This document shows, piece after piece, positions 3,235 through 6,615 of a DNA stretch of 28,622 nucleotides. This DNA comes from Candidatus Nanohalobium sp. (GTDB lineage Archaea > Nanohalarchaeota > Nanosalinia > Nanosalinales > Nanosalinaceae). The position numbers and the translations under genes were made by a program. The notes below the pieces were generated by a model that made no database searches, was not told the origin of the DNA, and saw only the letters and a list, made by a program, of their open reading frames with translations. How positions within the stretch are numbered: the first letter of the stretch is position 1; each line of letters starts with the position of its first letter. The stretch lies in contig JBDGSI010000040.1 in the NCBI GenBank assembly GCA_042217615.1, positions 1 through 28,622 on the forward strand. Direction: 5' to 3'.

Positions 3235-3579
3235 TTAGTTTATTTTTTCTGTGTCTTTGAACTGTTCCTGGAGGATTCCTTTGTCTCTTGCTGTTTGAAC
3301 AGTCTGTGATATTTCTGTGGAGAAGTCACGGTCCTGTGCGGCTTTTGCTACTGCATCTCTCAACGTGATTTCTATCTGAGGATCTTTTTTAAGCTTCTCT
3401 ACTATTGAATGGTTTGCACGGTTTCCTGTAAGGTACTGGCTGACTGCTGGCTGGGTTATACCCATTTTATCCGCTATTTCCTTCTGTTTCAAACCGTATT
3501 CTTTCCTGAGCTGGGAGGCCATAATGCTTCTGATCGCAGGCAGCACTTCCTCAGTTATTACCTCGCTTTCAAACCTCAT
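3235..3579 (-). CDS. XRE/Cro-type HTH transcriptional regulator (archaeal COG2522-like)
   Basis: EVLPAIRSIMASQLRKEYGLKQKEIADKMGITQPAVSQYL is a typical HTH with the TQPAVSQY recognition helix. Confidence 0.85.
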   Translation of the reverse strand: MRFESEVITEEVLPAIRSIMASQLRKEYGLKQKEIADKMGITQPAVSQYLTGNRANHSIVEKLKKDPQIEITLRDAVAKAAQDRDFSTEISQTVQTARDKGILQEQFKDTEKIN

Positions 3580-3617
3580 TGTTAGACGAGTTGGTGCTCA
3601 AAGAATTAAATCAACAC

Positions 3618-3658
3618 GGGGGAAAGAGGAGAGAGGAGAAAAGGAAAAAGGCCTTTTT
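3618..3658 (-). terminator. Putative terminator of the histone-fold gene
   Basis: On the minus strand the stop TAA runs into the perfect palindrome AAAAAGGCCTTTTT, followed by a long pyrimidine tract. Confidence 0.6.
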
Positions 3659-3998
3659 AGTGGTCTGCCTGTTGTACTTCCCTGGACAGTTTTTCCACAT
3701 CTGCTGCAAGTGCATCGAGTTTTCTGCTGACGCGTTCTTTTTCCTGGATGATGTTCTCCACTTTCTCATATTTTCTTGCTGCATGATCTAAGTGGTGTTT
3801 TTCGACGTATGCTGCGTCGGTTTCCATCATGTTGTCGATGATTTCCTCTGCGATTTCTCCGAGCAACAAGTTAAGGCCGTAGTAAACATTTGAACGGACG
3901 TACTGGCCGTCGTCTGCTTTTTCTCTAATCATTCTTTTGATCCTGGCGTGTGTGAACGGAAGGTCGTCTACTTCAGTATCTTCTGGGACTTCTACCAT
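3657..3998 (-). CDS. Histone-fold protein with C-terminal coiled-coil extension
   Basis: DLPFTHARIKRMIRE (helix 1), QYVRS loop, long helix 2 (NVYYGLNLLLGEIAEEIIDNMM), short helix 3, then a heptad helix IIQEKERVSRKLDALAADVEKLSREVQQ. Confidence 0.7.
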   Translation of the reverse strand: MVEVPEDTEVDDLPFTHARIKRMIREKADDGQYVRSNVYYGLNLLLGEIAEEIIDNMMETDAAYVEKHHLDHAARKYEKVENIIQEKERVSRKLDALAADVEKLSREVQQADH

Positions 3999-4030
3999 TG
4001 TTTATCACAGTAAAAATTGGGTTTCACAGT

Positions 4031-4107
4031 CTTATAATGGTTTATTTGTTTTCTCCGGTATCTGCGGTGTGGAAAGGCCTTTGGTGTTGAAACCGGTAAT
4101 TATAAAC
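4031..4107. promoter_or_regulatory. Divergent TATA boxes
   Basis: TTATAAG on the minus strand (4031-4037) is ~35 nt from the histone ATG at 3998. TTATAAAC on the plus strand (4100-4107) is 24 nt from ATG 4132, which suggests a leaderless mRNA. Confidence 0.55.
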
Positions 4108-4131: not shown

Positions 4132-4380
4132 ATGATAGATCTTGCAACTATTGACCAGGTGCTTAGTATACTGGTGAAAACAGTCTTCCTGCTGATTTTC
4201 GGCTTCACGGTGCTGCTGCTCCGAAAGCTTGATGATGTTATAGAGTCGGCGGAGCGGTCGGCTGAAAGCATTGAGCACACAGCGGAGACTGTGGAAAGCA
4301 TTATCAGTATAGCGGAGTTCCTGCCGATGATCGGAGGGAAAAGAAAAAAAGCAAGGAATCCGGAAAGTGATAATGAATGA
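4132..4380 (+). CDS. Small single-pass membrane protein with helical cytoplasmic part
   Basis: 82 aa with TM segment VLSILVKTVFLLIFGFTVLLL, then an amphipathic helix and a basic tail. Has an upstream TATA box and overlaps the next gene (ATGA). Confidence 0.65.
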   Translation: MIDLATIDQVLSILVKTVFLLIFGFTVLLLRKLDDVIESAERSAESIEHTAETVESIISIAEFLPMIGGKRKKARNPESDNE

Positions 4381-4676
4381 ACGATCTGTTAGAAGCCGCT
4401 GAGTCAGGAGATGATTCCAGCAGCGAGAGATATGAGAAGGTGAAGAAGGAGGAGGCAGGGACTGTAGATGTAGATCCTGCCAGGAAAAGGTATCAGGAAC
4501 TGAAGGAGAAGGCTAAAGAAGAACTGAAAAGAAAACACGAAGAAACCGGAGAACCTTCAGAACCTGGAGAGCACCATGAACAGGAAGAAAACCGGGAAGA
4601 CGGTCAAGGAGGAGGAACACTGGAAGAAACCGTTGAAACCGGAGCCAGCGACAAGAATTCATTTATAACACACTAG
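4377..4676 (+). CDS. Hypothetical acidic low-complexity protein
   Basis: 99 aa, E-rich composition typical of halophile proteins. Translationally coupled to the upstream gene. Confidence 0.6.
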   Translation: MNDLLEAAESGDDSSSERYEKVKKEEAGTVDVDPARKRYQELKEKAKEELKRKHEETGEPSEPGEHHEQEENREDGQGGGTLEETVETGASDKNSFITH

Positions 4677-4695: not shown

Positions 4696-5886
4696 ATGGA
4701 CCTGGACAGTGTTCCCCGGATAGCCAAATACCTTTCGACAGTTTTCCTACTTGTCTGGATAGGCAGAAGCACAGTCTGGATGTTCCTACCGGTATTCTTC
4801 CGCAGAAACATAGAAAGCGTCTTCCTTATAGGAGTAATGACCTCCCTACCCTCCATAATACCTGCAATACTGGATATACCTGTAGGAAAACTTGTGCAAA
4901 AAGCAGGAGAAAAATCAGTGGTATTCGCAGGCCTTATAACAACAGCAATACCTGCCTTACTGTATATAACTGCAGCACCTGTTCTCCTGGTAGCAGGGAA
5001 AGCGGTTGAAGGAGTTGCCAAATCACTTATATGGAACGGCGGCTGGTCTCTATCCCTGAAATCCTCAGATCCTGAAGTAGAATCGGAATCCGTCTCAGTA
5101 TTCCTTCTAGGAACAAACACCGGTATAGTAGTAGGCCCGATTCTCGGAGGCCTTATCCTCAAGGCCTACGGCTTTACAATACCGTTCATCTTCTGGATCT
5201 TCTCTGCCCTGCTTGCTGTAGCAGTTTTCTACGCCTACATAGGCCTTGATCTGGAGCAGGGTATCACTCGCTCTGTTGAGGAACTGATGAACAGAAGAAC
5301 GTATATGGATGAAGTAGAGGACTTTAGACAGTATTACAGTGTTTTGATGTATCCTTTCGCATTGACTTTTCTCTACAGCATTATCTTCTCCTTTTACTGG
5401 CTGACAATCCCGTTACTGCTTGAGAAGGTGAATGCAGGCTTCCCTCTAATGGGTGTTATCTTCGGAGTAGCAGCTCTTCCCAAACTTTTCCAGTTCGTAT
5501 TTGGAGACCTGGCGGACAGGTTCGGCCACTCCAAAATACTTGCAGGCCTTGCTCTATGCCTCACACCGGTTTTACTGGCAATGAGCCGGTTGGAAGGTGC
5601 CTTAATGCTGGGAGTGTTCTTCTTTATTGCAAGAATCTTCTCCGCAGGCATGTCTCCAGCAATACACGCCGAGTTCGATGCCAGGACGCCTGAAGAAGTT
5701 GAAGGAGAAATGACAGGTTTCCTGGAATTCTTCAAACATTCAGGACAAAGCATAGGCCCTATACTTGCAGGAACAGCAGCTTCAATATGGAGTCTTCAGG
5801 CCTCATTCATTGCAGCCGCTGCAGTAGCAGCTGTAATCTTTTTGACTGCTTTAACAAATACGGAAACGTTTTCAAAGCTTTTTTAA
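4696..5886 (+). CDS. Major facilitator superfamily transporter
   Basis: 396 aa, about 12 TM helices. MFS motif A variants PVGKLVQKAGEK and FGDLADRFGHSK; loop motif GIVVGPILGG. Confidence 0.92.
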   Translation: MDLDSVPRIAKYLSTVFLLVWIGRSTVWMFLPVFFRRNIESVFLIGVMTSLPSIIPAILDIPVGKLVQKAGEKSVVFAGLITTAIPALLYITAAPVLLVAGKAVEGVAKSLIWNGGWSLSLKSSDPEVESESVSVFLLGTNTGIVVGPILGGLILKAYGFTIPFIFWIFSALLAVAVFYAYIGLDLEQGITRSVEELMNRRTYMDEVEDFRQYYSVLMYPFALTFLYSIIFSFYWLTIPLLLEKVNAGFPLMGVIFGVAALPKLFQFVFGDLADRFGHSKILAGLALCLTPVLLAMSRLEGALMLGVFFFIARIFSAGMSPAIHAEFDARTPEEVEGEMTGFLEFFKHSGQSIGPILAGTAASIWSLQASFIAAAAVAAVIFLTALTNTETFSKLF

Positions 5887-6615
5887 CTCTGGGAACTTGA
5901 AGAGGCCTGCTTCACGGGAGACTGCAACCGCCTCCAGCTCGTTCTTGTCCACAAAGTTTCTTAGAACCGGTGAAAGAAGTTCCCTGCTAGGCATATTGTT
6001 CACTCCTGAACCCTGTGAAATAGTGGAGAAAGCAGGAAGCACTACAAGGCCTTTGCCTTCAGAGTTCTTGCCGTACAGGAAGCAGTTAACTTTCTCCTTC
6101 ACCCCTATATCATCTTTTAACTCCAGGGCAGGATGCTCATGACCTATAATAACAGTTTTAAACTTATCTGAGTTTACTTCAAGTTCCTTAAGGCTTATGT
6201 GGCCGTGTGTAAACAGTATACTGTTTTTAAGGAAGTATTTTTCCAGTTCAAATCCTTCCTCTTCCACTGCAGACTCTATAAATGTGTCATGATTTCCTTT
6301 TATCAGCACTACTTCACTGAATAGACTGTCAGCCTTCTCCAGAAAATCCTTTGTCTCCGATTTCTCCGCATACAAACTGGTTTTGAACTCGTTCTTCAAA
6401 TCGCCGTTCACAACCAGACGGAAGGCCTCTGTCTCCTCCTTAATCTTTTCAAGATCGCTTAGAATAGTTTCAAGCTGGAACTGAGGTATGTAACTTCCTT
6501 TCGAAGTCATTCCCTCCTCAAGGCCTAGATGCAGATCCGAGATCACAGCAGTATCTATCTCAGGGTGGTAGAGCGCCGGTAGACTGTCCACGGTTTGAAA
6601 CCCCAAGATTTCCAT
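5872..6615 (-). CDS. Metallophosphoesterase (calcineurin-like, COG1407-type)
   Basis: All five motifs present: SDLHLG, NGD, GNHD, HGH, GHEHP. C-terminal VLPAFS is typical of this subfamily. Confidence 0.9.
   Translation of the reverse strand: MEILGFQTVDSLPALYHPEIDTAVISDLHLGLEEGMTSKGSYIPQFQLETILSDLEKIKEETEAFRLVVNGDLKNEFKTSLYAEKSETKDFLEKADSLFSEVVLIKGNHDTFIESAVEEEGFELEKYFLKNSILFTHGHISLKELEVNSDKFKTVIIGHEHPALELKDDIGVKEKVNCFLYGKNSEGKGLVVLPAFSTISQGSGVNNMPSRELLSPVLRNFVDKNELEAVAVSREAGLFKFPELKKL

What the first reader, a model, noticed from the sequence alone, without database searches (positions are those of the whole stretch)
3657..3998. Non-canonical histone with a coiled-coil tail and no RxTxxxxD clamp
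Seen: the histone-fold pattern is present, but the L2/helix-3 motif reads AYVEKHHLDHA instead of RKTxxxxD, and a ~35 aa heptad helix follows. The gene has its own TATA box and terminator. Known: canonical HMf-type histones wrap DNA as hypernucleosomes, while histone variants with C-terminal oligomerisation helices can bridge DNA instead. Inference: a coiled-coil-type, probably DNA-bridging chromatin protein. A link to the AGGCCT or skew pattern is possible but untested.
Basis: partly seen in the sequence, partly recalled or inferred. Interest (0 to 1): 0.68.

Follow-up and report, generated by a model that had tools for sequence, protein, structure and literature searches.

The report
Coiled-coil histone of a nanohaloarchaeon
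This small gene encodes a "coiled-coil histone", a DNA-packaging protein with a long extra helix that probably ties two DNA strands together; the type was described in 2024, so this is a correct call of a known kind, not a discovery.

Summary
The ORF at 3657-3998 (-) is real. It encodes a 113-aa protein with an acidic N-tail, a histone fold that lacks the RxTxxxxD motif, and an alpha3 helix that runs on as a ~32-residue heptad helix. Pfam misses it. The histone fold is supported by a family profile, profile-profile comparison, an AlphaFold2 model (pLDDT 90.9) and two fold searches.

It is co-linear, without gaps, with the tailed histones of Methanobacteriales (30% identity). Its relatives lie in the phyla that Schwab et al. 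2024 list for "coiled-coil (CC) histones", Nanohaloarchaeota included. Only one CC histone, HMfC, has been shown to bridge DNA in vitro. A four-copy model gives two handshake dimers joined through residues 82-111 (score 0.66, best control 0.00).

New detail: a full or partial ortholog was found in 66 of 70 Nanohaloarchaeota genomes. It is at least as conserved as the main canonical histone, has a conserved BRE/TATA block, and one family carries a divergent second paralog. The suggested link to the hyper-abundant AGGCCT palindrome is not supported.

First readers of this scan noted the same protein on five other genomes. DNA binding and bridging are inferred, not shown.

The parts
3657..3998 (-). 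CDS of the 113-aa coiled-coil histone (P0001); the TAA stop is at 3657-3659
   Evidence: ORF list and translation. 132 homologs, almost all 113 aa. The start is conserved as MVEVP in 9 loci.
3963..3998 (-). Acidic N-terminal tail, residues 1-12 (6 D/E, no K/R)
   Evidence: Charge count. Acidic tails are described as typical of CC histones in Methanomada and DPANN (PMC11390915).
3894..3950 (-). Alpha1 (residues 17-27) and loop L1 (28-35). Residues 13-35 form the only net-basic segment (+3). It holds R19, R22, R25 and R35.
   Evidence: AF2 secondary structure and charge count. R19, R25 and R35 are invariant and R22 is present in 88% of 117 orthologs. The spacing R22/R25/R35/Y39 (0, +3, +13, +17) equals that of the published logo positions R32/K35/R45/K49.
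3828..3893 (-). Alpha2 (residues 36-57), the handshake helix; about 4 residues shorter than in canonical histones
   Evidence: AF2 model. A 4-residue gap relative to canonical histones appears in both hmmsearch and hhalign alignments. Modelled dimer contacts 46:46, 49:49 and 42:50. N43 is invariant across the whole family.
3801..3827 (-). Loop L2 (residues 58-66), without the R-x-T DNA-contact motif (it reads METDAAYVE)
   Evidence: A62 and Y64 stand where canonical histones have R52 and T54.
3663..3800 (-). Alpha3 continuous with the C-terminal helix (residues 67-112). The heptad part, about residues 80-111 (3666-3761), is the predicted inter-dimer coiled coil.
   Evidence: A single helix 67-112 at pLDDT about 90-96. 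Heptad pattern. Contacts of the scored copy with the two copies of the other dimer fall at 82-111. R89 of the EKER motif is invariant.
4031..4046 (-). BRE/TATA-like promoter element (AAATAAACCATTATAAG), centred about 36 nt upstream of the ATG
   Evidence: Read from the sequence. The block aaAcc/aTTA[AT]AAG is conserved in 9 of 9 orthologous loci within an otherwise divergent spacer.
3999..4008 (-). Conserved GTGATAA(A)CA block directly before the ATG (short leader or initiation region)
   Evidence: Conserved in 9 of 9 loci.
3618..3658 (-). Probable terminator. The palindrome AAAAAGGCCTTTTT (3645-3658) overlaps the stop. It includes a T5 run (3645-3649) and is followed by a T4 run (3639-3642) and a pyrimidine tract.
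   Evidence: Read from the sequence. Orthologs have T/C-rich tracts after the stop, but these are not conserved in sequence. Function is inferred from the oligo-T nature of archaeal terminators.

Best explanation
The gene encodes a coiled-coil (CC) histone of a nanohaloarchaeon, i.e. a member of the family that Schwab et al. 2024 defined.

Proposed mechanism:
- Two chains form a histone-fold handshake dimer through alpha2 and the L1/L2 pairs.
- Alpha3 does not stop; it runs on as a roughly 45-residue helix.
- The heptad parts (residues ~80-111) of two dimers pack into a helical bundle, giving a tetramer with the two histone-fold dimers at opposite ends.
- Each dimer offers its basic alpha1/L1 face (R22, R25, R35, perhaps R19) to one DNA duplex, so the tetramer bridges two duplexes rather than wrapping DNA.
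- Loop L2 has lost the R-x-T contacts. The long alpha3 should also block the dimer-dimer interface used in hypernucleosomes.
- The acidic N-tail may modulate DNA binding.

Status of each step. Shown here: the ORF, family membership by sequence, strong conservation, and its own conserved promoter. Predicted: the fold, the dimer and the tetramer. Inferred from one relative (HMfC): DNA binding and bridging.
For: Fold. AF2 model with pLDDT 90.9 and helices 17-27, 36-57 and 67-112. The top 50 Foldseek PDB hits are all histone-fold chains, e.g. Asgard HHoB with TM 0.77 and rmsd 2.1 A. 48 of the top 50 VIA-align hits are histone-fold chains, e.g. HPhA with Z 6.7 and rmsd 1.7 A over 61 residues.

Homology to histones. 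14 of 41 relatives hit PF00808. The family profile matches PDB archaeal histone and NF-YB at E 0.005. hhalign against canonical nanohaloarchaeal histones gives E 3.7e-4 over the whole fold.

Family membership. phmmer from P0001 reaches 118-199-aa relatives over residues 6-110. These include the Methanobrevibacter type (P0133, E 5.7e-8). BLASTP to a Methanothermobacter protein gives 30% identity over 99 residues with no gap, pairwise E 2e-16. A genome scan with the family alignment finds it in Aenigmat-, Alti-, Micr-, Nano-, Iain- and Undinarchaeota and in Methanobacteriales. These are the phyla the paper lists, which also include Nanohaloarchaeota.

Oligomer. Four copies score 0.66 (best control 0.00), with run agreement at least 91% and partner pLDDT at least 81. 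The tool's mark was reached by 20 of 30 solved homo-pairs and by 1 of 23 single chains. The counts hold only roughly, because the job used four copies and my own alignment. Handshake contacts link copies 3 and 4, and contacts at 82-111 link to copies 1 and 2.

Importance. 67 of 70 phylum genomes have a match and 66 have an ortholog. Identity is 89-96% where neighbouring genes are 24-75%. R19, R25, R35, Y39, N43, Y64 and R89 are invariant in 117 orthologs.

Function of the family. HMfC bridges DNA in a pull-down assay (PMC11390915).
Against: There is no direct evidence that this protein binds DNA.
- It is net -10 (pI 4.9), although the proteome median pI is also 4.9 and both canonical histones are acidic too.
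- The fourth proposed contact (logo K49) is an invariant Tyr here.
- R22 is Asn or Asp in the deeper families.
- HMfC, the only tested member, lacks acidic tails and comes from a non-halophile.
- HMfC itself was not compared, because no sequence was on hand; the link runs through other Methanobacteriales proteins.
- P0001 alone has no Pfam histone hit. The profile-profile probability is modest at 36%, and the fold-search Z values are below 8.
- The tetramer is a model and may partly reflect memory of histone dimers.
Confidence: 0.7

Rival explanations
1. It is a histone-fold protein that no longer binds DNA. Instead it serves as a protein-protein scaffold or transcription cofactor, in the manner of NF-Y, NC2 or TAF histone folds. 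It might work with the XRE-type HTH regulator encoded 77 nt downstream.
For: Loop L2 has lost the R-x-T contacts. The protein is net -10. The HTH gene is its neighbour in 10 of 10 loci of family f1. Schwab et al. caution that not all prokaryotic histone-fold proteins need be genome organisers.
Against: The alpha1/L1 arginines R25 and R35 are invariant, and the segment is the only basic one. The HTH neighbour is absent in families f2, f4 and f5, which keep the histone. The HTH gene has its own TATA-like box. The tested relative HMfC binds and bridges DNA. Acidic DNA-binding proteins are normal in this acidic proteome.
Confidence: 0.15
2. It acts mainly as a heteromer. It would pair either with the divergent paralog B of the same genome, or with canonical histones as a cap that ends or cross-links hypernucleosomes. 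It would not act as a homotetramer.
For: About 40 of 49 genomes of family f1 carry a second CC-type paralog. That paralog has Asp where the L1 arginine sits. All 70 genomes carry canonical histones as well. Capping variants are known among archaeal histones (PMC7776873, listed but not read here).
Against: The homotetramer model passes its controls. Families f2, f4 and f5 have the ortholog but no paralog was found there with this query. Alpha2 is about 4 residues shorter than in canonical histones, which should disfavour mixed handshake dimers.
Confidence: 0.1
3. It is not a histone at all, but a generic coiled-coil protein whose N-terminal half resembles a histone fold by chance.
For: P0001 alone hits only coiled-coil Pfam families, all below their thresholds.
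Against: Four independent lines point to the histone fold: relatives hitting PF00808, the profile against the PDB, profile-profile comparison, and two structure searches.
Confidence: 0.03

Closest known systems
Coiled-coil (CC) histones, e.g. HMfC (Mfer_0945, E3GZL0) of Methanothermus fervidus (Schwab et al. 2024, PMC11390915)
   Same: A single histone fold followed by a long C-terminal helix. A predicted tetramer of two dimers joined by a coiled coil. An acidic tail. Basic alpha1-face residues with the same spacing. Gap-free co-linearity at 30% identity with Methanobacteriales members. The same set of phyla, with Nanohaloarchaeota named in the paper.
   Different: The nanohaloarchaeal branch is short (113 aa) and has only an N-terminal tail. 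It has Tyr at logo position K49, and Ala at the family's near-invariant Tyr of the 'PY' motif in L2. It sits in an acidic halophile proteome. No member from this phylum has been tested.
Nucleosomal HMf-type archaeal histones (Pfam PF00808), including the two 65-aa histones of this genome
   Same: The histone fold and handshake dimer. The alpha1 arginines and the L1 arginine correspond to HMfB R10, K13 and R19; this correspondence is from my own knowledge of HMfB plus the alignment.
   Different: No RxTxxxxD motif. L1 is 2 residues longer and alpha2 about 4 shorter. Alpha3 is extended by about 35 residues. No PF00808 hit. Expected to bridge DNA rather than wrap it.
Methanococcales bridging histone MJ1647
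   Same: According to the paper it has the same overall idea: two histone dimers held opposite each other by a C-terminal tetramerisation domain, with bridging shown experimentally.
   Different: The paper reports little sequence similarity and a restriction to Methanococcales. It was not among the PDB rows I saw.
RdgC histones of Halobacteria and Bacillus
   Same: A histone fold plus a long C-terminal helix that forms a tetrameric bundle.
   Different: RdgC histones lead an operon with an RdgC-like gene and a four-domain membrane protein. Here the neighbours are an XRE-type HTH gene, an 82-aa membrane protein, an acidic 99-aa protein and an MFS transporter.

Membership tests
Coiled-coil (CC) histones (Schwab et al. 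2024) | Histone fold (alpha1-L1-alpha2-L2-alpha3) | tested here: met
   AF2 pLDDT 90.9. Foldseek top 50 all histone-fold chains. VIA-align: 48 of the top 50, Z up to 7.1. Profile evidence.
Coiled-coil (CC) histones (Schwab et al. 2024) | [quoted passage not shown] | tested here: met
   One continuous helix 67-112. Heptad a/d pattern over residues 80-111.
Coiled-coil (CC) histones (Schwab et al. 2024) | Predicted tetramer: two dimers opposite each other, joined through the C-terminal helices | tested here: met
   Four copies score 0.66 against a best control of 0.00. Run agreement at least 91%; partner pLDDT at least 81. The mark was reached by 20 of 30 solved homo-pairs and 1 of 23 single chains. 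Handshake contacts 3:4 plus contacts at 82-111 to copies 1 and 2. This is a model only.
Coiled-coil (CC) histones (Schwab et al. 2024) | Sequence homology to recognised members (Methanobacteriales CC histones) | tested here: met
   phmmer E 5.7e-8 to P0133. 30% identity over 99 residues, gap-free, E 2e-16, to a Methanothermobacter protein. The family scan hits Methanobacterium, Methanobrevibacter, Methanosphaera and Methanothermobacter. HMfC itself was not compared.
Coiled-coil (CC) histones (Schwab et al. 2024) | Basic alpha1-face residues (logo R32, K35, R45, K49) | tested here: inconclusive
   By spacing these map to R22, R25, R35 and Y39, so three of four are basic and the fourth is an invariant Tyr. 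The logo itself was not available.
Coiled-coil (CC) histones (Schwab et al. 2024) | Highly acidic N- and/or C-terminal tail (common, not universal) | tested here: met
   Residues 1-12 hold 6 D/E and no K/R.
Coiled-coil (CC) histones (Schwab et al. 2024) | DNA-bridging activity | not testable with these tools
   Shown only for HMfC in vitro.
Nucleosomal HMf-type histones (PF00808) | Match to PF00808 above the gathering score | tested here: not met
   No PF00808 hit for P0001 even at E up to 10.
Nucleosomal HMf-type histones (PF00808) | RxTxxxxD motif (L2 Arg/Thr DNA contacts and the Arg-Asp clamp) | tested here: not met
   A62/Y64/H69 stand at the R52/T54/D59 positions. The motif is present in both canonical histones of the genome.
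Nucleosomal HMf-type histones (PF00808) | Short alpha3 that leaves the dimer-dimer four-helix-bundle interface free for hypernucleosomes | tested here: not met
   Alpha3 continues to residue 112. That this blocks the interface is an inference.
RdgC histones | First gene of an operon with an RdgC-like gene and a multi-domain membrane protein | tested here: not met
   Neighbours are an HTH_3 protein, small unknown proteins, an MFS transporter and a metallophosphoesterase. The synteny is stable.

The most novel reading that the evidence does not exclude
In Nanohaloarchaeota the CC histone is not a minor accessory, as the low expression reported for M. smithii might suggest. On this reading it is a principal, near-universal chromatin architect. 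It is at least as conserved as the main canonical histone. In the largest family it works as an A/B pair with a fast-evolving paralog that has lost the L1 arginine. That would give asymmetric tetramers with one DNA-binding end and one regulatory or decoy end.
Probability: 0.15. Interest if true: 0.5.

Novelty: new member of a known kind. Interest (0 to 1): 0.3.

Why it matters
The finding gives a name and a testable mechanism to a protein that every database calls "hypothetical" and that Pfam misses. The protein is nearly universal in a whole phylum of tiny symbiotic archaea.

It also shows that DPANN halophiles combine wrapping histones (2-7 PF00808 matches per genome) with one or two bridging-type histones. 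For the field this adds detail to a class published in 2024 and does not open a new one. The nanohaloarchaeal branch could be a useful test of how a bridging histone works at molar salt.

Tried and rejected
- Pfam and NCBIfam on P0001 alone gave only sub-threshold coiled-coil noise, or nothing.
- The search for related loci with the wide alignment A1 failed for lack of a conserved stretch. The tighter alignment A2 worked.
- I looked for UniProt accessions of orthologs, to check them against the category tables of Schwab et al. None was on record, and the held supplements carry no sequences or HMMs. I therefore cannot say whether this exact ortholog group was in their set.
- AGGCCT link. The word is 10-fold over-represented in the window and 16-fold in the genome, and one copy sits in the terminator palindrome. 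However, genomes with none in 4-7 kb keep the histone and its alpha1/L1 residues. I rejected it as a specific target, on small samples per genome.
- Paralog B structure: AF2 with 11 sequences gave pLDDT 55, which is unusable. hhalign to the CC family gave E 1.7e-4 over 96 columns, but only alpha1 aligned to canonical histones.
- Tree. Paralog B sits on a very long branch inside the f1 clade with weak support. This is compatible with a lineage-specific duplication but does not prove it.
- MJ1647 did not appear in the rows I saw from the PDB searches. This is no evidence that the folds differ.

Full report
**Observation**

The window carries an ATG-to-TAA ORF at 3657-3998 on the minus strand, encoding 113 residues. 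Nine orthologous loci from other genomes of the phylum begin with the same MVEVP at the same ATG.

The protein has four parts:
- An acidic tail, residues 1-12, with six D/E and no K/R.
- A net-basic segment, residues 13-35.
- An acidic helix, residues 36-57.
- A region from residue 67 to the end whose hydrophobic residues follow a 3-4 spacing from V80 to A111.

**Is it a histone fold?**

On its own the protein matches no histone model. Pfam gives only sub-threshold coiled-coil families and NCBIfam gives nothing.

An exhaustive phmmer search found 40 cluster representatives. These include 118-199-aa proteins at 25-35% identity aligned over residues 6-110. The evidence from the alignment A1 built on them is:
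- 14 of its 41 members hit PF00808, best E 2.4e-5.
- Its profile's best PDB matches are archaeal histone A, NF-YB and H2B, at E 0.005-0.03.
- hhalign against 17 canonical nanohaloarchaeal histones (A3) aligns the whole fold, columns 2-63 of 65. E is 3.7e-4 and the probability only 36%. L1 is two residues longer and alpha2 about four shorter.

AlphaFold2 with A1 gives pLDDT 90.9 and three helices: 17-27, 36-57 and 67-112. Foldseek's top 50 PDB hits are all histone-fold chains; Asgard HHoB gives TM 0.77 and rmsd 2.1 A. An independent all-against-representatives search gives histone-fold chains in 48 of the top 50 rows. HPhA scores Z 6.7 with rmsd 1.7 A over 61 residues. Each line is modest for so small a domain, but all agree.

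**The missing motif**

In the hhalign register, canonical R52, T54 and D59 correspond to A62, Y64 and H69. The genome's two canonical 65-aa histones keep RNTVKKED and RKTVRDED. The loss of the motif is a property of the whole tailed family, whose L2 consensus is PY-x-x-[VI]-E. It is not a peculiarity of this gene.

**Which family?**

Schwab et al. 2024 (PMC11390915) defined "coiled-coil (CC) histones" as follows:
- A histone fold with a long C-terminal helix.
- A predicted tetramer of two opposed dimers.
- Frequent, very acidic tails.
- Four candidate DNA-contact residues on the alpha1 face.

They list the family in Aenigmat-, Alti-, Iain-, Micr-, Nano-, Nanohalo- and Undinarchaeota and in Methanobacteriota. 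They showed that HMfC of M. fervidus bridges DNA in a pull-down assay.

A scan of 185,579 species genomes with a tighter family alignment (A2) returned 311 confirmed loci. They lie in those DPANN phyla and in Methanobacterium, Methanobrevibacter, Methanosphaera and Methanothermobacter. P0001 aligns with the Methanothermobacter protein over 99 residues without a gap, at 30% identity and pairwise E 2e-16.

The paper's tables name Methanobacteriales entries (O27861, Q2NH93, A5UK87) as CC histones. I could not compare HMfC itself. I also could not check whether this ortholog group was in their data set.

The basic residues R22, R25 and R35 and the residue Y39 have exactly the spacing of the published R32, K35, R45 and K49. 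Three of the four proposed contacts are thus kept, and the fourth is an invariant tyrosine in this phylum.

**Oligomer**

Four copies were folded together and scored 0.66 against 0.00 for the best of three controls. The runs agreed in at least 91% of contacts and the partner's pLDDT was at least 81. The tool's mark was reached by 20 of 30 proteins solved as homo-pairs and by 1 of 23 solved as single chains. These counts hold only roughly here, because the job used four copies and my own alignment.

The scored copy contacts one partner by the classical handshake (46:46, 49:49, 42:50, 34:65). It contacts the two other copies only through residues 82-111. That is the published CC architecture. 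It is a model, and histone dimers are well represented among solved structures.

**Conservation and context**

The organism is a nanohaloarchaeon (names). Its assembly is 0.87 Mb in 89 contigs and 81% complete.
- 67 of 70 genomes of the phylum have a match.
- 66 of the 70 have a full or partial ortholog.
- One well-assembled genome (G031) shows only a paralog-level hit.

Within the largest family, identity is 77-96%. In the same loci the neighbours are 24-75% identical. For the same genomes the main canonical histone is 73-83% identical, against 81-86% for this protein. R19, R25, R35, Y39, N43, Y64 and R89 are invariant in 117 orthologs.

All 70 genomes also carry canonical histones, with 2-7 PF00808 matches each.

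The gene order Ig-like surface protein, XRE-type HTH, CC histone, 82-aa membrane protein, acidic 99-aa protein, MFS transporter, metallophosphoesterase is kept in 10 of 10 loci of that family. In the deeper families only the phosphoesterase stays nearby.

Upstream, a BRE/TATA-like block about 36 nt before the ATG and a GTGATAA(A)CA block at the start are conserved in an otherwise divergent spacer. After the stop come T5 and T4 runs in a pyrimidine tract. A separate TATA-like box precedes the HTH gene.

**A second paralog**

About 40 of the 49 genomes of the largest family, this one included, carry a second CC-type gene. Here it is 119 aa, at G000:C75:5819-6178. It is about 30% identical to P0001 and 66-87% conserved among genomes.
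- It aligns along its full length with the CC family at E 1.7e-4.
- It has Asp where the invariant L1 arginine sits.
- It falls on a very long branch inside the family's clade.
- Its AF2 model was too poor to use.

**AGGCCT**

The palindrome occurs 88 times in the window against 8.8 expected. Genome-wide it occurs 2,691 times, 16-fold over expectation and far above any other palindromic hexamer. Earlier notes of this scan describe the same phenomenon in related genomes.

Its density differs sharply among relatives. It is 3-5 per kb in some genomes and zero in 4-7 kb of others. The latter still keep the histone at 78-91% identity with the same alpha1/L1 residues. I see no support for a specific link, although the samples per genome are small.

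**Verdict**

The gene is a member of a class described in 2024 whose presence in this phylum is already in print. Novelty therefore lies only in detail: near-universality, very strong conservation, the tyrosine at the fourth contact position, and the paralog. DNA binding and bridging by this protein are inferred from one tested relative and need a bench test. First readers of this scan noted the same protein on five other genomes.

Noticed in passing
whole window (88 sites, e.g. 3649-3654 and 4075-4080) and the whole genome: The palindrome AGGCCT is about 10-fold over-represented in the window and 16-fold genome-wide (2,691 copies in 875 kb). That is far above any other palindromic hexamer. 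Its density is 3-5 per kb in some relatives and zero in several kb of others.
   Followed up: partly
G000:C75:5819-6178 (+) = L013:2320-2679: A second, divergent CC-type histone-fold paralog of 119 aa, about 30% identical to P0001. It was found in about 40 of 49 genomes of the largest family and not, with this query, in the other families. It has Asp at the L1 arginine position. The AF2 model was unusable (pLDDT 55).
   Followed up: partly
G000:C9, about 3605-3829 (L014:1642-1830, -), at a contig end: A further copy of paralog B that ends at a stop after 62 residues. It could be a pseudogene, a strain variant or an assembly artefact.
   Followed up: no
window 3235-3579 (-): A 114-aa XRE-type HTH protein (PF01381, E 1.7e-8) lies 77 nt downstream on the same strand. 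It has its own TATA-like box at 3605-3610. It neighbours the histone gene in 10 of 10 loci of the largest family but not in the deeper families.
   Followed up: partly
window 5872-6615 (-): A 247-aa calcineurin-like metallophosphoesterase is the only neighbour that stays within about 1.5 kb of the CC histone gene across all families of the phylum examined.
   Followed up: partly
window 4132-4676 (+): Two small genes are transcribed divergently from the histone: an 82-aa membrane protein and an acidic 99-aa protein. They overlap by 4 nt, have no Pfam family, and are conserved in synteny within the largest family.
   Followed up: no
P0125 (276 aa): A longer relative matches the query in two stretches. 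It may be a tandem or fused CC-histone form. It was not examined.
   Followed up: no
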